Shown here: positions 2,575-64,000 of the stretch, piece by piece | Layout: each line of letters opens with the position of its first letter | How positions within the stretch are numbered: the first letter of the stretch is position 1 | From: Squalus acanthias | Taxonomy: Eukaryota | Length of the DNA stretch: 64,000 bases | Assembly (NCBI GenBank): GCA_030390025.1 | Contig: CM059426.1 | Coordinates: 72,416,001 to 72,480,000 of the forward strand | Direction of reading: 5' to 3' | Position numbers and translations under genes: made by a program | The notes under the pieces: generated by a model | What the model was told of the DNA's origin: nothing | What the model saw: the letters and a program-made list of their open reading frames with translations, nothing else | Database searches by the model: none

Positions 2575-2938
2575 CAGGAAACTCTTTATTAACCGGCACC
2601 GACAGGACCGGCGTGGTGCCGGTTAATCAAAAAGTCCGGATAATGGAGAGTTATATCTCCCAACATACGAGAGCCCCGTACACATTGACATGCGCCTGCA
2701 TTCGGAGCTCCGTCTCCCCGGGGACCGCCAGCTGACCATCTGTCGTGTCCGCTGCCTACCCGGGCTGCACATTCCCCTCCCAATCTACACGCTCCGATAC
2801 AAGGCAAACGCCTCGGGGTTTTTTTTTAAGTTATTTTTAAAGGAGAGATGAAGGAAAACCCCGGTTACCTACTCAAGAATTTTGCCGGTTAAGAAAGATT
2901 TCCGGTTATTTGGGTGCCGGTTAAAAGAGAGTTTCCTG
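2575..2938. mobile_element. pogo/Tigger-family MITE (364 bp)
   Basis: TIRs CAGGAAACTCTTTATTAACCGGCACC / CAGGAAACTCTCTTTTAACCGGCACC with TA on both sides; both ends align with the ends of the element at 59790-62159. Confidence 0.88.
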
Positions 2939-16055: not shown

Positions 16056-16837
16056 TAAAGCCAGCTGCAAACTGATTCCGTAATTACCAGCCTCAAATTA
16101 AGCACAATATTCACTACAAATTCTGAATACATTGACCACAGTAATCTAGGTCAGCCTTAACTCAGTGGTAGCACTCTTGCTTCTGAGTCAGATGGTTGTG
16201 AGTTCAAGCCCCACTTCAGAGGCCTCAGCACATTGGTTTGCACTTGAGTGCAGTACCGAGGAAGTGCTGCAGTACCGAGGAAGTGCTGCACTGTCAGAGG
16301 TGCCATCTTTTCGATGAGATGTTGAACTGAGGCCCTATTTGCCCGTTCAGGTTGGCACAAATAATCCCATGGCATAATTTGAACAGGAGAGTTCTCCTGG
16401 TGTCCTGGCTAACATTTACCCAAATCAACAGCACTAAAACAGATTATCTGGCTATTTATCTCATTGCGGTTTATGGGACTTTGCTCTGTACAAATTGGCT
16501 GCTTTGTTTGCCTATGTTAGAACAGTGGCTGCACTTCAAGTGCGGAAAATCTGTTTTTGTGGCAAACAGGGCCTCAGCTCAACATCTCATCCAGAAGATG
16601 GCACCTCTGACAGTGCAGCACTTCCTCAGTACTGCACTCAAGTGCAAACCTATGTGCTGAGGCCTCTGAAGTGGGGCTTCAACCCACAACCATCTGACTC
16701 AGAAGCAAGAGTGCTACCATTGAGTCAAGGCTGACATAGATTACTGTGGTCAGTGCATTCAGAATTTGTAGTGAATATTGTGCTTAATATATAGCTTGAG
16801 GCTGGTAATTACGGAATCAGTTTGCAGCCTGCTTTAA
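16055..16837. repeat. Long inverted repeat (arms ~16055-16343 and ~16561-16837)
   Basis: The right arm is the reverse complement of the left arm, including ~95 bp of non-SINE flank. Confidence 0.9.
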
Positions 16838-19469: not shown

Positions 19470-19920
19470 AAAAAGAAAGAACTTGCATTTATATAGCTCC
19501 TTTCACTACCTCAGGATGTCCCAAAGTGTTTTGCAACCAATGAAGTACTTTTAAAGTGTAGTCACTTTTATAATGTATGAAACGTGGCAGCTAATTTTGC
19601 ACACAACAAGCTCCCATAAACAACAATGTGATAATGATAGTCTGTTTTAGAGATGTTAGCTGAGGGATAAATGTTGGCTAGGACACCGGGGAGAACTCCC
19701 CTGCTCTTCTTCGAAATAGTGCTATGGATCTTTAACGTCCACCTCAGAGGGCAGACGGGGCTTCGGTTTAACATCTCATCCCAAAGACGGCACCTCCTAC
19801 AGTGCTGCACTCCGTCAGTACTGCACTGAAGTTTCAGCCTAGATTTTGTGCTCAAGTCCCTGGAGTGAGTCTTGAATCCACAACCTTCTGACTCAGAGCT
19901 ACCAGAGCCACAGCTGACAC
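19470..19920 (-). mobile_element. DeuSINE (SacSINE1-like), near full length
   Basis: Reverse complement shows tRNA head, Deu core (GTGCCGTCTTTGGGATGAGATGTTAAACCGAAGCCCCGTCTGCCCTCTGAGGTGGACG) and tail TATATAAATGCAAGTTCTTTC. Confidence 0.85.
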
Positions 19921-20289: not shown

Positions 20290-20461
20290 CTGGAACTCCG
20301 CAGTTTGACATGTTGGTTTGATGTCTTTGCCGAATGGAAGAACGCTTGTAAACAACATGAGGGTGGCCTTCGCCATAAGTAAAGTCACTGGTATGGTCCT
20401 CAGATATATTCTGCAATGGCTCAATGAAATACTGATCTTCTTCTGTTACAATCACCCCATG
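20290..20461 (-). CDS. ADAMTS6: ADAMTS6 coding exon 3 (pro-domain, HGVIVTEEDQYFIEPL...HPHVVYKRS...SNCGVP)
   Basis: 172 nt; acceptor ttttctcaag|CAT, donor CCAG|gtaatt; phase continuous with the previous exon; matches recalled ADAMTS6 HGVIATEDEEYFIEPL...HPHVIYKKS...CGV. Confidence 0.93.
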
Positions 20462-21547
20462 CTTGAGAAAACAAAACAGATCAGCATTACTGCATGTAAG
20501 AATTTCAGAATTTTTTAGGAATTAGGCCCAAAAAGCCCATCCCTGAAGTACAGTACAGATATATCTGGATTGTGCATAATGAATGTTCAAAATTCTTTGA
20601 ACTAGTATTGTAAGAAATGTTATAACAAAGGGTGAATCATGAAACTTATAACAATGAGCATACAGCAACTGAGTCTGAGGATTATCCAAAAAAACAAAGA
20701 AATTGAAATATATTAAATCTACTTTTCTTTTAATTTACTACTTTCGAATAGCTATTTTTTCCCCCATTCATCTGGGTATTTAAACTGTTGGACCTTTTTT
20801 GCTGAGGAGTTGCCAGCAATGCACGGGGTTGTTACTCCTTCACTTTGTGTACAGCTTTCTTCCAAAAAATGAGTCAATGCTGATTTCAATGCATTTTATT
20901 ACTTTGAAATAAATATACTAGCCAGGCACCTGTAATAGTGATTTGTATCCCAATCAAATTTGTACTTTTCTTTATTCAAAACTTATGTGATATATTAAAC
21001 ACGAGTAATCATGCATGCAGCAAAACTCTAGTTTACACTCGTTGTAAGTTGGCAGAAGCATATTGTTCCCTTATAGTAGCCATATCTGTGATGGTAAGAT
21101 ATCCATGATTTGTAAACACTGAAAAAAGAGCTAATCAACCTCCCAACTAATGCAGCTTTTACTCCATCGCCAAGAAATATATTATTTAAACAAACCACCC
21201 GACCTGCATGGAACTTTGTCAGAAATCTGTACTTTGGTATGCTACACAGGAAGTGGGATTTTGGTACGTGCTTCTGACTAACATTCGGTCTGCAGAGGCC
21301 AGTGAAAGGGGCCTGCCTCTTTAAGATCTGGCTACCCTTCCCACTGCGGTGGATCATATGCAAATTAGCCATGTGCATCATACAGCGGGGCAGCTGTTTG
21401 TGTTTCCTCTCCTGCCACAGTTCCATTAGTTCAGTTAACATTTCTGGCTGCTGCATAATAACAGGCAATTTATATACTGCAGAACAACGCCACCGAATGA
21501 ATAAAGCAGCATCCCAATTTGAAAAGCAAGTTTAGTGTTCTACTCAC

Positions 21548-21912
21548 CAGACCATTACAGTTGCTTAAAGCCACTCTTGTAGTATTGTGCTCATGTTGTA
21601 CATATCCCACGTAATGGCAGTTATCAATAAAATCGTGTTTCCATTCTGGACCATCATTCCCCCAATATTCTACGATAAAATGTCTGGCGATTAATTTAGT
21701 GTTTAAACTCAAGTTTAAATGAAAGTGCTTGCCATAGGCGGACAGTCTGTAAAATAATTTAGATTCGGTTGGATCACGAGGTGTAACATCCGAACTCCTC
21801 CTTCGCCTTGAATGTCTATAGCTTTTCCCACTGTCGTTCAGGAAATCGCCGTTATGGTCCACTCGGACAGGAACCGTTAGCTGATAATGTTCAAGGTAAG
21901 AAAGGAATTCCT
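21548..21912 (-). CDS. ADAMTS6: ADAMTS6 coding exon 2 (pro-domain with HSRRRRS basic site)
   Basis: 365 nt; acceptor tttcaaag|AG, donor CTG|gtgagt; encodes [21 protein letters not shown]...[12 protein letters not shown]...[11 protein letters not shown]...VALSNCNGL. Confidence 0.95.
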
Positions 21913-22693
21913 CTTTGAAATCACAAGGTGGAAAGATCCAGGAAGTGGGCGTGAAAGGAAAAAAAAAGGACGTGACAAAGTACTACTAAAATACGAGTCA
22001 AAAATCATTCCATCCAATCTAAAGGGAGAGTAGCTGTCTGTCAAGTATTTTCAAAATGCAGCGATGTTAAGCTAAGTAACGACATCACACAGTCCAGTAT
22101 TAAATCAGTTAATGCCTCGGAGAATTAGTGGAACCACGTCACATGCAGTAAGTTGGGAAGGACAAAGACTTCGAAATAACCAGACTTATGCAGAAAGTCA
22201 ACAGTACTATCCCTTAAAAAGTGTGATCTAGTAACAATTTGCATATTGCAAGATATTGATACGAATTTGCCGTTAACACTCCAACTGCGATATGTGGACT
22301 CTGCTATGTAGACAAACCAAATCAATGCAAACTCCTGTCATAACCAAAACATTAAAGAATGTGTTGTGGACCTCGTTCAGCTTGGATCAAATGAGCTACT
22401 TTTGGTCTATCCCGATTCCCAACCTACTATATATAACGGGGCTGTATTCAAAAGGATTGCATCAAATCACGATCAAAGGTCACTCACATATAGCTCAGTC
22501 CAATCGCCTTAATAACTAAATTCTGCTGTTGCAATCGGTCAGAAATGTAGAATTAAAAAGAAATATGACAGACAGTTGTAACAAAGTAAAAATGAACTTG
22601 TGCCAAAAAAGCCAACATCGTTTATTTCTGTTGTAAAGCCTTGGTGATGTGGCGCTAGTCTACAGTGTATTGGTCATGATGAGATGATCCTAC

Positions 22694-22790
22694 CTTGAGA
22701 ACTGTAAGAAAGCCTTGTGTCACTGTCAAATTCCGAAGCAGCCATGACTAGGCTCAAAATCCAAGTCACCGTCTTCCACAAAATTTCCAT
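22694..22790 (-). CDS. ADAMTS6: ADAMTS6 first coding segment (signal peptide [32 protein letters not shown])
   Basis: ATG at 22790; 97 nt to donor CAAG|gtagga; nearly identical to recalled human N-terminus [21 protein letters not shown]; phase 1 joins the next exon. Confidence 0.95.
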
Positions 22791-45245: not shown

Positions 45246-46855
45246 TAACATAGCTATATATTTATATAGCACTTTTAACACATCAAACCCCATTCAAAGA
45301 GGCTCCACAGATGCATAAACAGATGTCAAACAATAAGAGAAGAATGAGGTGACCTGACAAAGCTTGATTGCAGAAGTTGGTACTGCGGAGGATTATGCCA
45401 CACTATTCCTATTAAGATGCTTGCTTACATTTTTCTGGTCAGCTTTTCTGACTGGCTCTGGGCTTGAAATGGGCAAGTTTTCCTTTGCTAAGCCAGGCTT
45501 CCTCCTGACCTAGCTAGCTGACTGAGTGCCCCTGTGCTCTTTTCTCTCCGTGTATTTACAGGAAGTGAAAAGGCTTCCACCCTATACAGTGATTCGTCAG
45601 TAGGCCTGTCAATAAAACCATAAACCTCTCCTCCCCCCTTGGGGTGTGGGCATCAAGAATCTATCTCCTGCTATTCTCAAAATAAATAGATGGCTTAATA
45701 GGTCTGGGATGAGACAATTGGCTTTCATTATCTCCGTCTGTGAGCTATGACATTCCACAAACTGGTTCATCTGGCATTAATGCACATCTTCAATGCCTGC
45801 AGCATTGTTTTGTTTTTGTTAAACCTATGCAAATTTGCTTTCTTTAAAAACACAACATTTGAACATAATTTATTACCAAATCGTTAATGTGAATTAAAAC
45901 ATTAAATGTGATAAGGATTCACTCATTTATTAATTTGTTAAGAAACCAGAAGGCTAGCCAAGTGAATTAATTAATTTGCTTAAAAAACCCAAACCTTTTT
46001 GCCTGTTATTTTTTTTCTCACTAACTGAATTTTTTAATGTTCAAAACTTAAGCACTGAAGGAGGTCATTTGGTACATTATATCTGTTCTAACACTCCAGC
46101 TGGAGCTGTCTACTCGAATACAATTTTCCTTCCCTTTCCCATATCTCTTGCTTTTCAAACATTTTTCAAATACAATTCCCTTTTAAAGTATGTTATAGTC
46201 TCTGCCTCAATAGCTATTTGTGGCAAAGCATTCCATCTCTACTAATCCTCCATATACTCTATGAAAACTTTTCATGATTTTGAAAGCCTCTATTAGATTC
46301 CTCTGAAAATTCAATGTTCTGGGGGAATAAAAATATTTTTGTGCATATCTTCATAACTATAACCTTTCAGTCATGGTATGATTCTGGTGAATCTTCACTG
46401 CACCTTTTCCATGGTTCCAATAATAATTGTACAGAACTGACACAATATTCCAACTGTGGCTTAACCAATGTCTTATACAAATTCAACATCACTTCCTCGC
46501 TTTTATATTTAATGGCATTATATATAAAACACAGGCCTAGAAATTGGATATGGCCCGAAAATGGCCGGTGTCATGGCCCAGCGCTATTAAGCTGCGCCGG
46601 GTCAAACTGGTCTAGGTAGCACACAAAATTCGTGCTCCGTCCTCATTAACATGATTATAGTGCTGATCTCGGCGCTAAAACTGCTGCTCATTGGCTTACC
46701 GCTCAACAGGTGGGCCAATATCGGGTGCAGTCTAATTCTCAGTCATGTTTGGCCTAGGCTTTATCCAGTACTTAAAGTGGAGGTGCATTGATGCAACAGC
46801 ACCTCATTGTCTTCTACTTGGAACTCCACCTGGAAGCAGAACCAAGTACAAAGAG

Positions 46856-48676
46856 ATGGCTGAGCCTCAGCACAGGGAGAGAGCAAGATGCTTCTCAGAC
46901 GCAGCTCTGGAGGCACTGGTGGTGGCCGTGAAGAGGAGGCGGGCTGTCCTCTTCCCGCAGGCCGGCAGGAAGCCATCGGCCCATACGTCCAGAAGGCTGT
47001 GGCGGGAGATATCTGATTATGTGACGGCCACAAGTGTGGTCCCCAGGTCATCCAATGCCGCCAGATGTTTAATGACATCACACAGCAGGTCAAGGTGAGT
47101 GAAGGCTTCAGCAAATGCCATATCCAACTATCTGCACCACAAGCCTCACACACTGCTCAATGCACCACACCCCCAGCACTCACCTACCAACAATCTCTGC
47201 CTATCACCACTCATACCTTACAATCATAGCTTCACTTCACTTTCACAACCATACCACTGCTGCAACACTCACACCCACATCTCACACCTTGCACACACTG
47301 ACAGCTATTCAACTATGGCAAGCACATCACCCATATACATTGTACTACACTCACTCACACATTTCCCTTTCTCTTACAGTCCAAGGTCGCCGGGAGCAGT
47401 GGCAGGCAGGCAGGGGCAAGCTGCCATACAGGCCAACTGGAGGACTCAGTGCTTGACATAATTGGAGGGGAAGTCACCGAGGCCATGGCAATGGGCAAGG
47501 TTGAAGCCCTTACGGACAATAACGGTACGCTCATTCCTAATCCTTCTTCTCACATCCCACTACCCCTCATCCCACAATCTCTTCTCATTTACAAGCTGCT
47601 GATGACGTATGCATGGTTATCTTGCTTTCCCCCCGCCCTCCCCTCACAATAACCCGACTCGTGCCTTTCTGCTTTCAGATAACCAAGAACAAGCAGCAGC
47701 CCAGCCTGTTCCCGAGGCGATGGAGGAGAGCGAGGGGGGAGAAGAAGAAGACACACTATCACTGCATCTGTCACTCACAGACACCAGCTCAGAAAGGGGC
47801 ACTGCGCGGAATGTAGAGGGTAGTGTAGATGCGGGATCTGCACATGGTGAGGCAGCGGGCACGAGTGGGCTGCAGCAGAGCCAGGGGGAAAGGGTAGCTC
47901 GGGGGCCAGCTCCCCAGAGGGTGAGTTCGCGCGCGAGTTCTGCTACACACTACTCAGATGAGGACCACAAAGGGGTGGCCTTCAGAAGAAGGGTGATGGG
48001 TATGCACACCGAATTGCCAGGTGCAATGGCAAGCCTGCCAGAGAGCCTCTTGGCAATGTCAAGGAGCATGGAGGAGTCCGCCTTCAACATTGGTCCAGGC
48101 TTTGCGCAGAGCTTGGAGCCCATGATTTCCAGTCTGGAAATGATGGAAATCTCCTGGAGAGACCGTGTCGACCCAGACATGATGCTGTGTGTGATGGGCA
48201 ATGTTGCGGCTGCCATTGCAGCAGAGGCCCAACGTCTCAGTGCTGCCACACAAGCTCAGACTGCTGCCACCGTGGCTGGGTTTACCAACGTCGAACAGGG
48301 CTTGCAGGGTGTCGCAGCAGGCCAGCAATCTGTCCTGCACCAGATTGCTAGGAATGCTGAGGCGCCGCCCTGGGGGAGTGGCAGTGGGTCAGTGAAGCAG
48401 GACCCTGCTGTCCTCTCTCAGGATGACAGCATTCCTGCTCCTTCCACTGTAACTCTGCCATTGCTCTTGCCGCTGCATGTCAGCCAGCCAGCCCAGACTG
48501 CTACCGCCCATGCTGAGGTGGTGCAGTCTGCAGCTGGGCCTTCTAGGTCTAGTGCTGTCCTGGAAGGCCATCTGAAGTCTCCCCCACGGAAACTCAGCAG
48601 CCTTCCACCAGCCATGCTTCAGCCACTGGGGGAGCACTTTGTAGGAGCACTAGATCAGGAAAGGGCACCCGAATGA
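46856..48676 (+). pseudogene. Harbinger Myb/SANT-like DNA-binding protein gene (3 exons: 46856-47094, 47380-47524, 47679-48676)
   Basis: MAEPQHRERARCFSDAALEALV...LFP...LWREIS...QCRQMFND motif; GT-AG introns (aag|gtgagt, ttacag|, acg|gtacg, tttcag|); frameshift near 47050. Confidence 0.75.
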
Positions 48677-54007: not shown

Positions 54008-55315
54008 ATCGCAAAATACTGCGATGCTGGAAATCCGAAATAACAACAGAAAACGCTGGAAAAACTCAGCAGACGAGGTAGCATCCGTGGAGAGAGAAAC
54101 AGAGTTAACGTTTCAGGTCGAAGACCTTTCATCAGAACTGGAAAAAAGCAGGAAATTGAATAGATTTAAAAGCAGGTTTAGGGGCGGGGAAATGGGGGAG
54201 GGGATGAAAGAACAAAAGGGAAGGTCAGTGATAGGATAGAAAGCATGATGTGGAGATGCCGGCGTTGGATAGAAAGCAGGAGAGATTAAGAGACATTGAG
54301 AGATATTCAAGACAAGAGGAGGTGGTAATGGGACAGGTTGAGGAACAAAGGATGGCTCTAGATGAAGTGTGAATTGCGCTGGCAGAATGAAGGACAGCTG
54401 CCATGTGGGAGGGAAGAAAAAAGACCAAACAAAAAGTGTGGATAAAAAAATATATATATATATGTGATAGGGGCCGAGGTTATGATCTGAAATTGTTGAA
54501 CTCTATGTTGAGTCCAGAGGGCTGTAGAGTGCCTAATCGGAAGATGAGGTGCTGTTCCTTGAGCTTACGCTGAGCTTCTGTGGAACAATGCAAGAGGCCG
54601 AGGACGGTGAGGTCTGAGTGGGAGTGAAGCGGTGAATTAAAGTGACAGGCCACCGGGAGCTCGGGGTCCCCCTTACGGACTGAAAGGAGGTGTTCCACAA
54701 AGCGGTCACCCAATCTGCGTTTGGTCTCCCCAATGTAGAGGAGACCACATTGTGAGCAGCGAATACAGTATACTAAATTGCAAGAAGTAAAAGTAAATCG
54801 CTGTTTCACCTGGAAGGGGTGTTTGGGGCCCTGGACAGTGGGAAGCGGGGAGGTATAAGGGCAAGTGTTGCATCTCCTGCGCTTGCACGGGAAGGTGCCG
54901 GGTGAAGTGGAAGGGGTGCTGGGGGTGGTAGAGGAGTGGACTAGGGTGTCGCGGAGGGAGCGGTCCCGACGGAATGCTGAAAGAGGAGGTGAGGGGAAGA
55001 TGCGTTTGGTGGTGGGATCACACTGGAGGTGGCGGAAATGGCAGAGAATGATACGTTGAATGTGGAGGCTGGTGGGGTGAAAGGTGAGGACAAGGGGAAC
55101 CCTATCGTGATTCCGGGAGGGAGGGGCAGGGGTGAGAGTAGAAGTGCGGGAGATAGAACGGACATGGTCGAGGGCCGTGTCAACCACCGTAGAGGGGAAT
55201 CCTCGGTTGAGGAAAAAGGAAGACATGTCAGAAGCACTGGTATGGAAGGTGGCATCATCAGAGCAGATGCGGCGGAGACGGAGAAACTGGGAGAATGGAA
55301 TAGAGTCCTTACAGG
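54008..55315 (-). mobile_element. 5'-truncated Penelope-like element (GIY-YIG endonuclease plus terminal repeat)
   Basis: ORF 54480-55226: CKRRRCNTC, NLVYCIRCSQCGLLYIGET, EH..HF, GLN; upstream IPFSQFLRLRRICS; hammerhead-bearing terminus. Confidence 0.9.
54103..54139 (-). ncRNA. Minimal type I hammerhead ribozyme (Penelope-associated)
   Basis: Minus strand AGTT-CTGATGA-A-AGGTC-TTC-GACCT-GAAAC-GTT-AACT: both core boxes, 5-bp stem II, stem I AGTT/AACT, loopless palindromic stem III. Confidence 0.7.
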
Positions 55316-55596
55316 TGTTTTAATGTTTCTGAAAGATGAAGTTTTATTGAATTCAGAATTTTATTATTTCCATATAGTTGTATATCTAAAGAGCATTGAC
55401 ATCAGGAATATATGGCTTGCAAGTTATAAATTTCTACAACCAGTGCTTAGGTAGCAAGAGGAATCGGATTTGCAAGAATTCCATACTGTTAAGTTATTTA
55501 AGGGCCGCTTCAGTAGTGCAGTATTCATACAAAAACAATTCTGTGATGATTGTATCTTTAAAAGTCTATGAAAGTATTTGAAGTGACCTTTCTAAA

Positions 55597-58083
55597 AAAG
55601 AAAGACTTACACAACCTCAGGACGTCCCAAAGCTCAGGACGAGTTCATGGAATACATTCGGGACAGTTTGCTAGAACAATACGTCATGGAATCAGCCAGG
55701 GAACAGGCTATTCTAGATATTGTATTGTGTAATGAGACAGGGTTAATTAGCAATCTCATAGTAAAGGATCCTCTGGGGCAGAGTGATCATAATATGATAG
55801 AATTTCACATTAAGTTTGAGAGTGACTTGCCTAAGTCCGAAACTAGAGTCTTAAACTTAAATAAAACCAATTACATAGGTATGAGGGGCGAGTTGGCTAA
55901 GGTAGATTGGAAAAATAGATTAAAAGGTATGGTGGTAGATAAGCAGTGGCCAGCATTTAAAGAAATATTTCATAATTCTCAACAAAAATACATTCTATTG
56001 AGAAACAAAAACTCCACAAGAAAAGTGATCCATCCGTGGCTAACTAAAGAAGGATAATATTAGATTGAAAGAAGAAGCTTATAATGTTGCGAAGAATAGT
56101 AGTACTCCTGAGGATTGGGAGAGTTTCAGAAACCAGCAAAGGATGACCAAAAAATTGATAAAAAGGGAAAAAATAGAATATGAGAGAAAACTAGCAAGAA
56201 ATAAAGAAACAAATTGTAAGAACTTCTACAAGTATGTAAAAAAGGAAGAGAGTTGCAAAAGTAAACGTTGGTCCCTTAGAGGCTGAGACAGGAGAAATTA
56301 TTATGGGGAATAAGGAAATGGCAGAAACGTTAAACAAATATTTTGTATCTGTCTTCACAGTAGAAGACACAAAATGCATACCAAAAATGGTGGGGAACCA
56401 AGGGTTTAATGAGGGTGAGGAACTTAACATAATTAATATAAGTAGAGAAAAAGTACTAGAGAAACTAATGGGACTAAAAGCCGACAAATCCCCATGACCT
56501 GATGGCCTACATCCTAGGGTTCTAAAAGAGGTGGCTGAAGAGATAGTGGATGCATTGGTTGTGATCTTCCAAAATTCCCTAGATTCTAGAACGGTTCCAG
56601 CAGATTGGAAGGTAGCAAATGTAACACCGCTATTCAAGAAAGGAGGGAGAGAGAAAACAGGGAACTACAGGCCAGTTAACCTGACATCAGTCATTGGAAA
56701 AATGCTGGAATCCATTATTAAGGAAGTGGTATCAAGGCACTTAGAAAATCATAACATGATTAGGCAGAGTCTACATGGTTTTATGAAAGGGGAATCGTGT
56801 TTGGCAAATTTATTAGAGTTTTTTGAGGATGTAACTAGCAGGGTAAATAAAGGGGAACCAGTGGATGTAGTATATTTGGATTTCCAAAAGGCATTCGATA
56901 AGGTGCCACATAAAAGGTTATTACACAAGATAAGGGCTCATGGGGTTGGGGGTAATATAGTAGCATGGATAGAGGATTGGTTAACGGACAGAAAACAGAG
57001 TAGGGATAAACGGGTCTTTTTCAGGTTGGCAGGCTGTAACTAGTGGGGTGCCGCAAGGATCAGTGCTGGGGCCTCAGCTATTTACAATCTATATTAATGA
57101 TGAAGGGACCAAGTGTAATGTATCCAAGTTTGCTGATGATACAAAGCTAGGTGAGACAGTAAGCTGTGAGGAGAACAAGAGTCTGTAAAGGGATATAGAT
57201 AGACTAAGTGAATGGGCAGTAAGGTGGCAGATGGCGTATAATGTAGGGAAATGTGAGCTTATTCACTTTGGTAGGAAGAATAGAAAAACAATATACTTTT
57301 AAATGTTGGTGTTCAGAGAGATTTGGGTGTCCTTGTGCAAGAAACACAGAAAGCTAGCATGCAGGTACAGCAAGCAATAAGGAAGGCAAATGACATGTTG
57401 GCCTTTATTGCAAGGGGGTTGGAGTATAAGAGTAAGGCAGTCTTGCTACAGGGCCTTGGTGAGACCACACCTGGAGAACTGTGCAGTTTTGGTCTCCTTA
57501 TCTAAGGAAGGATATACTTGTCTTGGAGGTGGTGTGACGAAGGTTCACTAGATTGATTCCTGGGATGAGAGGGCTGTCCTATGATGAGAGATTGTATAGA
57601 ATGGGCCTATACTCTCTGGAGTTTAGAAGAATGAGAGGTGATCTCATTGAAACATACAAGATTCTGAAGGGGATTGGCAGGGTAGATGCTGAGAGGTTGT
57701 TTCCCCTGGCTGGAGTGTCTAGAACTAGGGGGCATAGTCTCAGGATAAGCGGTAGGCCATTTAAGTCCGAGATGAGGAGGAATTTCTTCACTCAGAGGGT
57801 TGTGAATCCTTGGAATTCTCTGCCCCAGAGGGCTGTGAATGCTGAGTCTTTGAGTATATTCAAGGCTGAGATAGATAGATTTTTGGACTCTAGGGGAATC
57901 AAGGGATATGGAGATCCGGCGGGAAAGTGAAGTTGAGGTCGATGATCAGCCATGATCTTATTGAATGGCAGAGCAGGCTCGAGGGGCCGTATGGCCTATT
58001 CCTGCTCCTATTTCTTATGTTCTTAAAGCGCTTTACAGCCAATGAAGTACTTTTGAAATGTAGTCACTGTTGTAATGTAGGAA
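55597..58083 (-). mobile_element. DeuSINE 3' tail fragment (55597-55633 plus 58025-58083), split by a CR1
   Basis: 'aagaaagactt...acaacctcaggacgtcccaaagc' continues as 'aaagcgctttacagccaatgaagtacttttg'. Confidence 0.7.
55634..58024 (+). mobile_element. 5'-truncated CR1 LINE
   Basis: ORFs 55647-56057, 56303-56497, 56531-57043, 57553-57930; tail TTCTTATGTTCTT; AAAGC at both junctions. Confidence 0.9.
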
Positions 58084-58244
58084 AATAAAGAAATTGATGG
58101 TGGATTTATGTCTTAGTCAACATCCTTGCTACTATTATCTAGCCACTGCCTGCTTTAATCTCGGTACAATTCCAACTAGAGGCAGCCTGTTGTATCACAG
58201 GAACATAGAAACATAGGAAAATACAGGACTGGAAAAGACTCTAT

Positions 58245-58941
58245 GGGGGAAAAATTTGGTTGGTTTGCACCTTTCGTTAGCGCCCCTGCAGAGCAGTGCC
58301 CTGCGTGGCGCCGCTAACACCACTCGCGAAATTCAGCGGGAGGTTAGTGGCGGCGGTAGTTGGTAGCGCCCCGCGGCGCTGTGCTGCCAACAATGATGTC
58401 ATCGCCGTGCACCGTACCCCGGCCTCAAACTTCCCTTGCGCCCCCTTAACCTATCGCCGGACGATATGTCCGACAGGATCAGGGGGTGTTTTTGCAGCGG
58501 CGGCGCTACTTAAAGGGCAGGTGTTGGGCGGCCATTTTTATTTTGGCCGACTGCCAGCACCTGCCCCCATTCCCTTTTTTATGCAGGATGCTGGCTGCGA
58601 TCGCTCAGCCTGGCACTCCTCTGAGTGGCAGGCTGTTTTCACGGCACCCCACTCCCCGGTGATCCAGCAGGGCCCTGGTGCGCAGAGCGCTAGGCCACTC
58701 CTTTCATCGGGGGGGGGGGGGGCTGCAGTGCCGCCGCGCGTGGCGCTGTTGCACGTAGTACCGCAAACTTCAGTAGTAGCGCCCCAAGAAGGAGGTGCCT
58801 TGCTTCCAGTAGTGCCCCACCTATTGCTTGGGGCGCTACTACTGAATTTACGGCGGAGGGGCGCTAACTTTATCGGGCCGCTAAAATTAGCGCCCCGGCG
58901 ACGTTAGCGCCCTAAAAGGGGCACCACCCAATTTTTACCCC
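58245..58941. mobile_element. GC-rich Harbinger-like MITE (697 bp)
   Basis: TIRs GGGGGAAAAATTTGGTTGG / GGGGTAAAAATTGGGTGG; TAT duplication; many TAGCGCCCC / GGGGCGCTA motifs. Confidence 0.82.
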
Positions 58942-59299
58942 TATAGTTCATCTGGACAGTCCCAAAATCTCTCAATCGCCCACTCCTCTAAATTTCTCCC
59001 CACTGTCTGCTCACAGGGCCTCACTGGGCAGTCCATTCCACACAATCACCACCCTCAGCATAAAATGGTTAAATCTAAACTGTCTGTGTACCTTCCCTCT
59101 CCTAAGCTTGAGCCTGTCTTATCTGGTTCTAGATGTTTGTGGCAATCTCAAACATATTGTCAGCGTTCAAAATATCTATTTCCTTAAGAATGTTAAATAC
59201 TTGAATAATATCTTCCCTGAGCATTCTCTTCTCTAGAGTAAACAATTCCAGGCTCTTCAACCTCTCCTCATAGCTCAGATGTAAGGTATAAGTTTGGTT

Positions 59300-59635
59300 C
59301 GGAGTGTGCCGTCTTTCGGATGAGACGTTAAATCGAGGCCCCATCTATCCTCTCAGGTGGACGTAAAAGATCCCAAGGCACTATTTCGAAGAAGAGTAGG
59401 GGAGTTATCCCCAGTATCCTGGCTAATATTTATCCCTCAACCAACATAACAAAAACAGATTATCAGGTCATTATCACATTGCTGTTTGTGGGACCTTGCT
59501 GTGCGCAAATTGGCTGCCGCGTTTCCCACATTACAACAGTGACTCCACTTCAAAAAGTACTTCATTGGCTGTAAACGCTTTGAGACGTCCGGTGGTCGTG
59601 AAATGTGCTATATAAATGCAAGTCTTTCTTTCTTT
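59300..59635 (+). mobile_element. 5'-truncated DeuSINE
   Basis: Deu core GTGCCGTCTTTCGGATGAGACGTTAAATCGAGGCCCC...CAGGTGGACGTAAAAGATCCC and tail TATATAAATGCAAGTCTTTCTTTC. Confidence 0.88.
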
Positions 59636-59789
59636 TCCCCTCTTCTGCACTGCCTTGAATGCCAGGATATCTTCGTTGTCGTACAGAAAACAGATTTTTA
59701 CACGGTACTCCAGGTGGGCCATACTAGTGCCTTGTAGAGATTCATTATCATCTCCAGGGATTTCTGCACGAACCCTCTGGCCATATATA

Positions 59790-62159
59790 CAGGAAACTCT
59801 TTGGTATCCGGCACCGACGGGCCCGGGATGGTGCCGGTTGATTAAAAATTCTGGATAACGGAGAGGGTTATCTACCAAGGCTATTTTTAACAAACAAAAA
59901 TAAAAACATCAAGAAATGTGCAGTATACAGTAATTGGGTACTCACCTACAGAATGTTGTGTTAAATGGATGGTGGAAGATGCTCGATTAAGTACAGTACT
60001 GCCAGTTGAGGGTAATCCATAACTCTTTAATTACTTAACAGTAAAACAAAACTTATAAACGACTGTATACAGTACTGTAGTTGACTGTACACTTATTCCA
60101 AGTCAGCTGGTTCATCAGGAATATCCATGCCAGCTGGGTCATCAGGATCATGCACTTCCATAGATTCTTCAGGCACTTCCGCTGCTTCAACTCTTTTGGA
60201 AGCTTTCTTAAACATGTCCCAGATGTCTGCTTGCTTAGTGGACTCTTGCCTTTTCTGTAGAAAGGTGGAATGCAGAATATGGAGGTGCATAACTTCTTGG
60301 GCAGAGTAGCAAGGCTGCCTTTCAGCAAATTGGAGGATTGAAGCAAATCCTTCTGCAGCTTTAGCCCAAGAAATCTTCTTCTCTTCAGAAATCTCATCCT
60401 CTTCACTTTCCTTCTCACTTTCCTTTTCTTTTTTTGGATTCAAAACATTCTCAATTATTTCATCATCACTTAGCATATGCACAACACCAACTTCTCTATC
60501 TGCATCAACCCACTGCTCGATATCACTTTCACTGAGGTGACGTAGAGGGTATGCTGGGCCTACATTTTTCACCATGCCAGCCATTTCCATTATTGTACTC
60601 TTCTTGGGACGAACATTGAACCCATGAAATTCCTCCTCTGAAGAAGAACCTTCAGCAAACATTACAGAAGGCCACAATTTGCGCCAGGCTTGCCTCAGAG
60701 TGTGACCTTTCACCAAGTTCCAGGAACATGCAACATTATAGATGGCATCTTTAAGATTGTATTCCTTCTGAAATGCGTGAATATTGTCATCTTGGTTTAT
60801 CAGTTTACGTAGGAAGTCTTTCTTGTAATGACACTTCAGATTTTGGATAACGCCCTGGTCCATGGGTTTTATGAGAAAAGTTACATTTGGTGGCAAATAA
60901 ATGGTGAAAATATTTCCCGAAACCAACTCGGATTCATGCGGATGGGCTCTACAATTATCAAGCAATAAAATGCATTTGCTATCTTCAGGTTTCCCTATTT
61001 TACGGAAATATTCCCTCACAGATGGAACAAAAATATGATGGAACCAATACAAAAAGATTTCCTTATCCATCCAAGCATTTTTTTGAGCTTTGTACTCAAC
61101 AGGTAAGTGCCTCACATTTTTAAATGCACGGGGATTTTTATACTTCCCAATAACAAGAAGTTTAACCCGGTGTGATCCAGCAGCGTTCGCACATGTTAGC
61201 ACGGTTACACGATCTTTATTTTTCTTGTAACCTGAAGCATTAGCCTCACTAGCCCGAGCAAGCGTTGATTCTGGCAAAAACCTCCAAAATAAGCCAGTTT
61301 CATCGGCATTATATATCTGTGCTGGCGACAAATCATGTTGCGGCACAATCCGATTGAAATAATCGCAGTATTCTTCTGCGGCTTCGTGATCAGCTGATTT
61401 CTTCTCCCCGGAAATATCGAGTCGTCGTATCCCGTGCCGTAACTTGAAGCACGTTAGCCATCCCTCGGAGAAAGCACACGTGTCAGTGAGCTCCATCCTT
61501 ACGTAGAAATCCTTCGCTTTCTCGATTAGCATGGGTCCGGAAAGTGGAACACCCTCTGAACGCTTAAGAGAAAACCACTCATAAAGCACGGTATCCAGCT
61601 CTTCAAGCTTAGGCTTACGAAGCGTACGCCGTTTCTCTACACTCTTAGATGTCTCCGAGTTTGAATAAAACTTGAGCAGCTTATCCTTCTGCGATTTGAT
61701 GTCGTAGATTGTTGACGAACCGATTTTGAATTCATTCATAATGTTGATACACTTCTCTCCCCTTTCTAGTCATTGGCATATCTCAATTTTCTGTTTTAAA
61801 GTTAACACCACTCTCTTCCTTTTGTTTGGACCAACTTTTGGGAATTCCATAATGCAAGATGGGGGAGATAATTCACGATAAAGATGGAGAGACACACAGA
61901 ACAATGGTGGATCGGAAGAGACTACCAGCAGCGCGGGAGAATCAGACTCCTGTTACTGCGGTGTTCGGACTTCTGACAGCGCCAGGAAGCCGAGTAGTGG
62001 CACTTTGGAGAACTACCCCCACTGACTAACTCGGCGTTCGTGGGAGACTCGGACTCGGCAACATTGCCGGTTATTGAGGAGTTGCTTTTCGGGGTATGAA
62101 TTTTGCCGGTTAATAGAGAATTCCGGATATTTAGGTGCCGTTTAAACGAGAGTTTCCTG
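59790..62159 (-). mobile_element. Full-length pogo/Tigger DNA transposon (2370 bp), JRK-like transposase
   Basis: TIRs CAGGAAACTCTTTGGTATCCGGCACC / CAGGAAACTCTCGTTTAAACGGCACC; TA on both sides; CR1 flanks rejoin when it is removed. Confidence 0.93.
60093..61739 (-). CDS. Jerky (JRK)-like pogo transposase, CENP-B-type HTH plus DD32D domain; ancestral start probably 61850 with a TGA at 61770-61772
   Basis: 548-aa open frame: [39 protein letters not shown] (32 residues between D2 and D3); in-frame upstream MEFPKVGPNKRKRVVLTLKQKIEICQ*LERGE. Confidence 0.9.
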
Positions 62160-63454
62160 TATCTCAAGATCCAATTAGCTATTCTTACTGCTGCTGTACT
62201 GCACTATTGGTTTCAATGAGCACAAATAGCCACTGAGTTCTCTCTTGTGTTTTGTTCTGCAACTTAGAACTATTTAGTTTATGTTCTCATGGTTTATTTC
62301 CCTATCCTGGCCCTATTAGCTTGACTTTGTCCACATTAAATGTCACTTATCACTCTTTAGGCCACCTTCTCAACCTATCCAGATCCCTTTGTATTTGGTT
62401 TGGCTCTTCACTATTGTTACTAATCCCCTCTAAAAAATGGTGTCATCTGTAAACTCAGACAGCTTTGTTTCTATCCCAGCTACCACTTATTTATACAGTG
62501 CATATAGTCCCAGCACTGCTCCCTGTGGCACCCTGCTAGTGATCAGTTGCCATTTCAATAGAGCTCCATTCACACCCACCTGTTGTTTTCCCTGGTTTTT
62601 CCAATTTTCAATCCACTTCAGAAGCTTGTCTCCTATCTCCTGCCTTCCTACACTCTGGATTAATAATTTGTGTGGAGCAGTCTCAAAATCCTTGATGAAA
62701 TCGAAATATATCACCTCCACAGAATTTCTATTGTTAGCAAGGCCCAGAATTTTGTCAAAGAGCTCCAGTAAATTTGTTAGACAAGACCTATAGACCATGC
62801 ATGGGCATGTGGCAGGTTTATGGCTATGGCTCTTCACATTATGAACTTTTCAATTTGGCCAGATCATCTGGTGGAGTTACTAATGGAAGCATTTTGGTTG
62901 CTTTCAGGAAAGGAAGGAAATTTAATTCAGAGTAGCATCTAGTGGCCTATTACAGGTCAAATCACTTGGCCACCCTTTTAAGGGTTTAACTTTCTCTGTG
63001 CGTTATTTTTAGCAGTTCCTGGCTGGGGTAGAGATTGCATCATACAAGAGGTAGGTACCAAATAATACAGTCATGGTAAATGTGGTCTCCTGGATTAGTT
63101 TTGATCGCCTAGAGGAATCAGAAAGGAATTTTGTTCCCTTTTTGGCCTTGGGTTTTTGATCTGGTTTTTCGCCTCTTCCAGGAAACTTTTGGCACCTAGA
63201 GGGTAAGGAGTGTCTTGACCTGATGCATAAAGCATCACAACTGTATGGGACAAGCTAAATGGACCAGCTAGTTTTTTCCAGTCCAATGTTTGCATATGTA
63301 AATTAAGAAAAAGTCAATCCTATTGATTGGAAAGCTGGGCACTTAGAGCAAATAAGGAGGTAAACCTAAAAAGGAAGGGGAAAAAGTGACTAATAAAAAG
63401 GGAGAAACAAAATAAATTGTTTCAGATTCTAGTAGCTCCACACAGTTTAGATAC

Positions 63455-64000
63455 ACATCTCACCCTCAGTAAGCTCCCCGCTGCAGTGGAGCTAATCTAC
63501 AGAACAAACGGGAAACTGTTCAACCTCCGTCGCCTCCAGTCCAGATCCAAGGTCATCCCATCCTCAGTCATCGAATTACAGTATGCAGACGACGCTTGCG
63601 TCTGCGCACACTCTGAGGTCGAACTCCAAACCATCGTCAACACCTTCACCGAAGCGTACGAGAGCATGGGCCTTACTCTAAACATCCGTAAGACAAAGGT
63701 CCTCTACCAACCTGCCCCTGTCACACAGTACTGCTCCCCGATTATCAAAATCCATGACGAGGCCTTGGACAACGTGGACCACTTTCCATGCCTCGAGAGC
63801 CTACTGTCAACAAGGGCAGACGTCGATGATGAAGTCCAACACCGCCTTCAGTGTGCCAGTGCAGCCTTCGGTCGCCTGAGGAAGAGAGTGTTTGAAGACC
63901 AGGACCTCAAACCCAGCACCAAGTTCATGGTCTACAGAGCAGTAGTGATTCCCGCCCTCCTGTATGCTTCAGAGATATGGACCATGTACAGCAGGCACCT
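63455..64000 (+). mobile_element. 5'-truncated RTE-clade LINE, running off the window
   Basis: Open frame VELIYRTNGKLFNLRRLQ...ELQYADDAC...GLTLNIRKTKV...ASAAFGRLRKRVF...KFMVYRAVVIPALLYASE. Confidence 0.88.

What the first reader, a model, noticed from the sequence alone, without database searches (positions are those of the whole stretch)
59790..62159. Intact-ended pogo transposon whose transposase looks like the mobile counterpart of mammalian JRK (Jerky)
Seen: a 2370-bp element with 26-bp imperfect TIRs and a TA duplication, inserted into an old CR1, encoding a CENP-B-HTH/DD32D transposase. Recalled (needs confirming): it matches human JRK along its length, including segments outside the generic Tigger motifs: [75 protein letters not shown] and FAERQPC.SAQEV. 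JRK is a domesticated pogo transposase without TIRs and, as I recall, has E at the third catalytic position (PMEQG), whereas this copy keeps PMDQG. Inference: this is a recently mobile family from the lineage that gave rise to JRK, which would expose the ancestral TIR and DNA-binding site of that gene. An automated pipeline could mislabel it as a JRK orthologue.
Basis: partly seen in the sequence, partly recalled or inferred. Interest (0 to 1): 0.82.

Follow-up and report, generated by a model that had tools for sequence, protein, structure and literature searches.

The report
Shark Tigger transposon, cousin of JRK
This is a nearly intact but disabled cut-and-paste transposon in a shark- or ray-type genome, from the same transposon lineage that gave mammals the JRK gene; that lineage was already known, and closer relatives of JRK exist in turtles.

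Summary
The element is real: 2370 bp (59790-62159), TA on both sides, imperfect 26-bp TIRs (20/26), and a 585-codon CENP-B-HTH/DD32D transposase with one in-frame stop at codon 27. It interrupts a decayed CR1 about 37 kb upstream of ADAMTS6 in a cartilaginous fish. A 364-bp MITE with the same ends lies at 2575-2938. The protein falls in the Tigger clade that holds mammalian JRK (95/93 support). It is not JRK's closest mobile relative: it groups with shark proteins, turtle elements are sister to mammalian JRK, and 'element + mammals' is rejected (AU p 2.4e-5). Gao et al. 2020 already list those turtle and alligator elements with TIRs, and their TIR matches this one at 20 of 24 bases. The Codebook papers already report that JRK binds Tigger15a ends and propose Tigger15a as its source. 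The D-versus-E argument fails: 23 of 38 mammalian JRKs keep DDD. A better marker turned up: 37 of 37 therian JRKs lack 8 residues just after the third catalytic residue, which this element keeps. Verdict: a new shark member of a known family, of modest interest.

The parts
59790..62159 (-). Full-length Tigger (pogo superfamily) transposon, 2370 bp
59788..59789 (.). TA target-site duplication, left copy (within a TATATA run)
62160..62161 (.). TA target-site duplication, right copy
59790..59815 (+). TIR at the 3' end of the transposase; holds one TAWCCGGM site (59805-59812); first 24 nt are 20/24 identical to the turtle Tig1-like TIR of Gao 2020
   Evidence: comparison by eye
59816..59867 (+). 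Subterminal region shared with the MITE (64/78 over the whole end) and with turtle elements (22-nt motif at 59830-59851, 3 mismatches)
62134..62159 (-). TIR at the 5' end of the transposase; its inner motif copy departs from TAWCCGGM
62066..62129 (-). Three further TAWCCGGM sites (62122-62129, 62105-62112, 62066-62073), inferred transposase binding sites
60093..61850 (-). Transposase ORF, 585 codons
61770..61772 (-). Single in-frame TGA (codon 27) inside the first HTH; no frameshift in the ORF
61668..61823 (-). CENP-B_N HTH (aa 10-61)
61422..61604 (-). HTH_Tnp_Tc5 (aa 83-143)
60684..61304 (-). Catalytic domain with D183, D298, D331 (DD32D); RNase H-like fold closest to Metnase/SETMAR, Mos1 and Sleeping Beauty
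60825..60848 (-). aa 335-342, start of the helix after the third Asp (includes conserved K339); present here, deleted in all therian JRK rows
2575..2938 (.). 364-bp MITE of the same family, TA on both sides, TIRs 24/26, six TAWCCGGM sites, interior unrelated to the element
62162..62789 (-). Host CR1 ORF2 remnant upstream of the insertion (RT region)
59002..59787 (-). Host CR1 ORF2 C-terminal remnant downstream of the insertion, itself interrupted by a repeat at about 59301-59631

Best explanation
An autonomous-type Tigger/pogo cut-and-paste transposon of the JRK lineage that inserted at a TA in a dead CR1 in a cartilaginous fish and has since picked up one nonsense mutation. Inferred mechanism, from family knowledge of Tc1/mariner/pogo: the paired N-terminal HTH domains bind the repeated TAWCCGGM sites in both ends, the two ends are brought together, and the DD32D RNase H-like domain cuts the element out and joins it to a new TA, which is duplicated on repair. 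The same enzyme mobilised non-coding MITEs such as 2575-2938. This copy cannot make full-length transposase, because the stop lies in HTH1 and restarting at M38 would lose half of that domain, but it might be moved in trans. It is a cousin of JRK's source, not the source. Shown: anatomy, domains, fold, tree position, end-sharing with the MITE and with turtle elements. Inferred: binding sites, catalysis, trans-mobilisation, age.
For: TIRs and TA TSD in an interrupted CR1. Domain set and intact triad. Domain model pLDDT 72.9, pTM 0.74; best matches Metnase Z 12.4 (rmsd 3.7, 168 aligned), Mos1 12.0, Sleeping Beauty 11.5. TAWCCGGM occurs 11 times in the window (chance mean 2.9, max 8 in 100 shuffles), 10 of the 11 in the element or the MITE. 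Turtle-element end motifs hit only these two elements (3 matches vs chance 0.13; 2 vs 0.00). Careful tree: 25-row clade with mammalian JRK 95/93; query + Rhincodon + Chiloscyllium 100/100; turtles + mammals 100/98. Query + mammals rejected, p-AU 2.4e-5. Young relative to its host: CpG o/e 0.73 vs 0.04 in the right CR1 flank and 0.41 for the window; at most one stop is expected up to about 8% divergence; 4 of 113 conserved columns differ, one of them shared with both shark relatives.
Against: Only one coding copy and one MITE were seen in 64 kb, so genome copy number and divergence are unknown. The tree has no JRKL, TIGD, CENP-B or Tigger15a rows, and the branch leading to the JRK clade is short (0.076); its SH-aLRT support was 99 under LG+G4 and 93 under the mixture model. 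The left CR1 flank has CpG o/e 0.53 on only 4 CpGs, so the CpG contrast rests mainly on the right flank. The full-length model was poor (pLDDT 55, pTM 0.26). Binding of TAWCCGGM was not tested.
Confidence: 0.9

Rival explanations
1. The element is the direct mobile counterpart (sister or source family) of mammalian JRK.
For: All 38 named mammalian hits among the best 120 are JRK/jerky, none JRKL or TIGD. It is 58% identical to marsupial JRK vs 45-53% for named invertebrate relatives. It shares C-terminal motifs with JRK.
Against: AU test rejects it. Turtle, alligator and one coelacanth protein lie between it and mammals. The turtle element is closer to marsupial JRK in every region: 87/77/80/59% vs 60/72/67/46%. 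Tigger15a is published as the best Dfam match and binding target of JRK.
Confidence: 0.04
2. A domesticated or once-domesticated JRK-like host gene (orthologue or pseudogene) that happens to keep TIR remnants.
For: ORF almost intact; Gao 2020 reports JRK 'pseudogenes' in cartilaginous fish, lobe-finned fish and Anura.
Against: Clean TSD, insertion into a CR1 that has decayed much further, a same-family MITE nearby, a stop in HTH1, and an ADAMTS6 neighbourhood. That human JRK lies elsewhere (8q24.3) than ADAMTS6 (5q12) is recalled, not tested.
Confidence: 0.03
3. The family reached this host by horizontal transfer rather than by descent, so its likeness to turtle and coelacanth elements reflects transfer.
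For: The JRK clade does not follow host phylogeny exactly: two coelacanth lineages, and turtles rather than alligator next to mammals. In the wider tree neither invertebrate nor chondrichthyan rows form a clade (p 6.5e-6 and 0.022). Tigger transfers are reported as common.
Against: Nearest relatives are other shark proteins (100/100), and 63-67% identity to turtle, alligator and coelacanth proteins does not point to a recent transfer. Sorting of old paralogous families explains the same pattern. This concerns origin only and is compatible with the best explanation.
Confidence: 0.3

Closest known systems
Turtle and alligator 'Tig1-like' Tigger elements (Gao et al. 2020, PMC7386202, Table S1 and Fig. 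S5)
   Same: 2.3-2.75 kb, 22-26-bp TIRs, TA TSD, 524-601-aa transposase, DD32D in three of eight rows, listed next to JRK in the tree text. TIR 20/24 identical and subterminal motif shared. Proteins 63-66% identical.
   Different: Host is a cartilaginous fish; the TIR starts CAGG rather than CAGT; it belongs to a shark sub-clade further from JRK. The TIR start was not found in Table S1 of Gao 2020 or in the supplement of PMC9219625, and the single cartilaginous-fish row of Gao's table has a different TIR.
Mammalian JRK / mouse Jerky
   Same: Same domain order and DD32 spacing; 47-58% identity over about 90% of the length; same clade.
   Different: JRK is a host gene. 37 of 37 therian rows lack residues 335-342, and 14 of 38 mammalian rows have E at the third position. 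This element has TIRs, a TSD and a nonsense codon.
Tigger15a (Dfam/Repbase)
   Same: Published as the family whose ends JRK binds and the best TBLASTN match of JRK among Dfam Tigger/Pogo consensuses, so probably the same lineage.
   Different: A mammalian fossil, therian in distribution according to PMC11601254.
Shark 'jerky protein homolog' proteins of Rhincodon (P0011) and Chiloscyllium (P0007)
   Same: Sister group, 100/100; 64-71% identity; DDD kept.
   Different: Known only as predicted proteins here; their flanks, TIRs and copy numbers were not seen.

Membership tests
Tigger family, pogo superfamily | Short TIRs (up to 40 bp) and TA TSD | tested here: met
   26-bp TIRs, TA on both sides; definition
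Tigger family, pogo superfamily | CENP-B_N + HTH_Tnp_Tc5 + DDE_1 in one ORF | tested here: met
   definition
Tigger family, pogo superfamily | DD29-36D triad | tested here: met
   D183/D298/D331, DD32D
Tigger family, pogo superfamily | Dispersed multi-copy family | tested here: inconclusive
   One MITE in the window; the host genome could not be searched
JRK-lineage Tigger elements (Gao's Tig1-like1) | Groups with JRK and the turtle/alligator elements | tested here: met
   95/93; 69 named hits only, no JRKL or TIGD rows
JRK-lineage Tigger elements (Gao's Tig1-like1) | Shared TIR and subterminal sequence | tested here: met
   20/24 by eye
Direct source family of JRK | Sister to mammalian JRK | tested here: not met
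   AU p 2.4e-5; turtles are sister, 100/98
Tigger15a | Nucleotide identity to the Dfam consensus; JRK PWM sites in the ends | not testable with these tools
   Neither the consensus nor the PWM was found as text
JRK orthologue (domesticated gene) | No TIRs or TSD, intact ORF | tested here: not met
   TIRs, TSD and a stop codon are present
JRK orthologue (domesticated gene) | Synteny with the mammalian JRK locus | tested here: inconclusive
   The neighbour is ADAMTS6; JRK's own neighbourhood is recalled, not from a call
Active transposon | Intact ORF and demonstrated excision | tested here: not met
   TGA at codon 27; activity not testable here

The most novel reading that the evidence does not exclude
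This shark family still has intact, mobile copies, and its end motif (TAWCCGGM repeats, shared with turtle elements) is the site that JRK binds in Tigger15a. One transposase-TIR code would then have lasted from the shark-bony fish split to a human transcription factor, and the 8-residue loss after the third catalytic Asp would be the lesion that switched off therian JRK's catalysis while sparing DNA binding. That would give a working transposase and JRK as a matched before-and-after pair for domestication.
Probability: 0.15. Interest if true: 0.6.

Novelty: new member of a known kind. Interest (0 to 1): 0.3.

Why it matters
It extends TIR-bearing JRK-lineage Tigger elements to cartilaginous fish. 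It suggests that some non-mammalian 'jerky homologs' or 'JRK pseudogenes' are transposon copies, which matters for annotation. With a single stop and a full triad it is a practical outgroup for asking what JRK lost on domestication. The side result (8-residue deletion in 37 of 37 therian JRKs, absent in echidna and in non-mammals) is a concrete, testable candidate for loss of catalysis. The headline question, which transposon gave rise to JRK and what JRK binds, already has a published answer.

Tried and rejected
D vs E as a marker of mobility: rejected. Full-length structure prediction: too poor to use; only the catalytic-domain model was searched. PDB sequence search found only the CENP-B DNA-binding domain, 1hlv, E 7.5e-7. 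Rfam found nothing in 58000-64000. No other transposase remnant of this family in the window. MITE as a simple internal deletion of this element: no interior match. A fuzzy TIR scan treated IUPAC letters literally and is uninformative; the blastn covers the question. Cluster membership of the top hits could not be looked up, so whether they are multi-copy rests on Gao's table (4-9 copies in seven rows, blank in one). Literature searches for a shark JRK-lineage element or for the therian deletion found nothing relevant. These cover only open-licence PMC and bioRxiv, and Repbase/Dfam were not searchable, so the family may be catalogued there. Dupeyron 2020 has no mention of JRK or jerky in its main text. 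Rows left out: 51 of 120 hits without an organism name (all 54% identity or less), and 22 of 36 eutherians for the trees.

Full report
Observation. The element spans 59790-62159 (2370 bp) with TA on both sides; its ends match at 20 of 26 positions, the first 11 exactly. The minus strand carries a 585-codon ORF (61850-60093) with one in-frame TGA at codon 27 and no frameshift. Pfam finds CENP-B_N, HTH_Tnp_Tc5 and DDE_1, and the triad is D183/D298/D331, DD32D. The flanks are consecutive parts of one decayed CR1 ORF2.

Surroundings. Three ADAMTS6 coding exons lie at 22790-22680, 21916-21548 and 20461-20291 on the minus strand. The second is 87-89% identical to the three best hits, which include catshark and skate ADAMTS6, and at most 71% to the other 117 listed, so the host is a cartilaginous fish. 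The element lies about 37 kb upstream of that gene's start. A second member of the family is in the window: a 364-bp MITE at 2575-2938 with TA on both sides and 24/26 TIRs. Its ends match the element's at 64/78 and 55/62, and its interior does not match. The motif TAWCCGGM occurs 11 times in the window against a chance mean of 2.9, and 10 of the 11 lie in the ends of these two elements. The motif was drawn from these ends, so this shows repetition and restriction to the ends, not function. I infer that these are transposase binding sites.

Relatives. The homology search listed 120 of 722 hits. The best are 'jerky protein homologs' of coelacanth (67%), painted turtle (65%), Chinese alligator (66%) and sharks (64-71%), then marsupial JRK (58%); eutherian JRKs are 47-55% and named invertebrate proteins 45-53%. 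All 38 named mammalian hits are JRK. I used the 69 hits with an organism name, and 48 of 70 rows for trees (22 eutherians dropped). In the careful tree (quick trees agree on these groups), a 25-row clade (95/93) holds the query, two shark proteins, two coelacanth proteins, alligator, three turtles and all mammalian JRKs. The query is sister to the sharks (100/100), and turtles join mammals (100/98). Forcing query + mammals is rejected (p-AU 2.4e-5). The turtle protein is closer to marsupial JRK in every region: 87/77/80/59% against 60/72/67/46%. No JRKL, TIGD or Tigger15a row was available. Their exclusion rests on hit ranking and on DD32 versus DD34 spacing for JRKL, TIGD2 and TIGD7 (Gao Table 1).

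What is in print. Gao et al. 2020 (PMC7386202): I read main-text parts 1-4 of 7, searched rows of Tables S1 and S2, and read part 3 of 5 of the Fig. S5 text, not the drawn figure. The paper derives JRK from Tigger, gives DD32D/E, and notes JRK pseudogenes in cartilaginous fish. In the Fig. S5 label order, six turtle and two alligator 'Tig1-like' transposons follow the JRK block. Table S1 gives them 22-26-bp TIRs, TA TSDs, 524-601-aa transposases and 4-9 copies where stated. Read by eye, the alligator and Pelodiscus rows match my hits P0004 and P0006 in species, length and N-terminus. Their TIR matches 59790-59813 at 20 of 24 bases. A 15-nt inner motif and a 22-nt subterminal motif from those rows hit only the element and the MITE. 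The Codebook papers (passages only: PMC13538051 main text and supplementary note, with supplementary file 13 not searched; PMC11601247; PMC11601254; bioRxiv 2024.11.11.622097) report that JRK binds Tigger15a, that the Tigger15a TIRs hold JRK PWM sites, and that Tigger15a is JRK's best Dfam match. So the source lineage, its TIRs and JRK's binding to them are known. I found no listing of this shark element: its TIR start is absent from Gao's Table S1 and from the supplement of PMC9219625 (passages; long table cells are cut at 400 characters). PMC5753468 only names Tigger15a, and PMC7325037 does not mention JRK. Repbase and Dfam could not be searched.

Catalytic residues. All 37 therian rows lack the 8 residues matching 335-342. 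Echidna and all 31 non-mammalian rows that cover the region, the query included, keep them; one further row does not cover it. In the domain model (pLDDT 72.9, pTM 0.74) these residues begin the helix that follows the third Asp and include K339, conserved in at least 90% of the non-mammalian alignment. The model's best matches are Metnase, Mos1 and Sleeping Beauty catalytic domains (Z 12.4, 12.0, 11.5). That this helix carries DNA-end contacts in DDE enzymes is recalled. That the deletion disables therian JRK is my inference; one literature search for it found no paper.

Age. One stop and no frameshift fit a divergence below about 8% (simulation). Four of 113 conserved columns differ, one shared with both shark relatives. 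CpG o/e is 0.73 against 0.04 in the right CR1 flank. Against very recent activity: 6 TIR mismatches, a damaged inner motif in the 5' TIR, and 11-18% difference from the MITE ends. The copy is young relative to its CR1 host but not shown to be currently mobile.

Mechanism. Shown: TIRs, TSD, repeated end motifs, two HTH domains, a complete DD32D fold and a cognate MITE. Inferred from Tc1/mariner/pogo biology: HTH binding to the end repeats, pairing of the ends, cut-and-paste into TA, and mobilisation of MITEs in trans. This copy is disabled in cis by the stop in HTH1.

Verdict. A real, well-preserved shark member of the already catalogued JRK-lineage Tigger elements: a cousin of JRK's source, not the source. 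Interest 0.3.

Noticed in passing
window 2575-2938: 364-bp MITE of the same family, lying downstream of the third ADAMTS6 exon found and so probably intronic; CpG o/e 1.02, TIRs better preserved than the long element's.
   Followed up: yes
therian JRK proteins (P0009, P0014, P0064 and others), aligned to element residues 335-342: 8-residue deletion directly after the third catalytic residue in 37 of 37 therian rows, absent in echidna and non-mammals.
   Followed up: partly
P0003, P0006, P0008 (turtles) and Gao 2020 Table S1 rows: Turtle elements keep long ORFs in several species, and both softshell rows share DD32Y. They may be orthologous insertions or a separate or earlier domestication; synteny untested.
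   Followed up: no
P0010 (Pelodiscus), P0069 (Geotrypetes): Jerky-like transposases carrying Pfam PF01352 (recalled as KRAB) in two different branches of the tree, suggesting independent fusions.
   Followed up: no
window 59784-59789: The left flank is TATATA; with one TA removed, the CR1 frame is still offset by 2 nt at the junction. Slippage or an older footprint; unexplained.
   Followed up: partly
window 59301-59631: Repeat inserted in the same CR1, with further copies at 19472-19797 (83%), 16300-16539 and 58021-58084; resembles a shark SINE (recalled, not tested).
   Followed up: no
window 20291-22790 (minus strand): First three coding exons of ADAMTS6.
   Followed up: yes
window 46736-48676 (plus strand): Myb/SANT-like ORF (Myb_DNA-bind_5, E 1.1e-4) followed by a 356-aa ORF without Pfam match; possibly a Harbinger-type element (inference).
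   Followed up: partly
window 54480-55319 (minus strand): 279-aa ORF with a weak GIY-YIG match (E 0.0014, below the curated cut-off), as in Penelope-like retroelements (recalled).
   Followed up: partly
window 58766-58912: GC-rich cluster of short hairpins (32, 27 and 26-nt arms) just left of the host CR1; probably the end of another mobile element.
   Followed up: no
window 63480-64000: Degenerate reverse-transcriptase-like sequence on the plus strand, judged by eye to be a different LINE.
   Followed up: no
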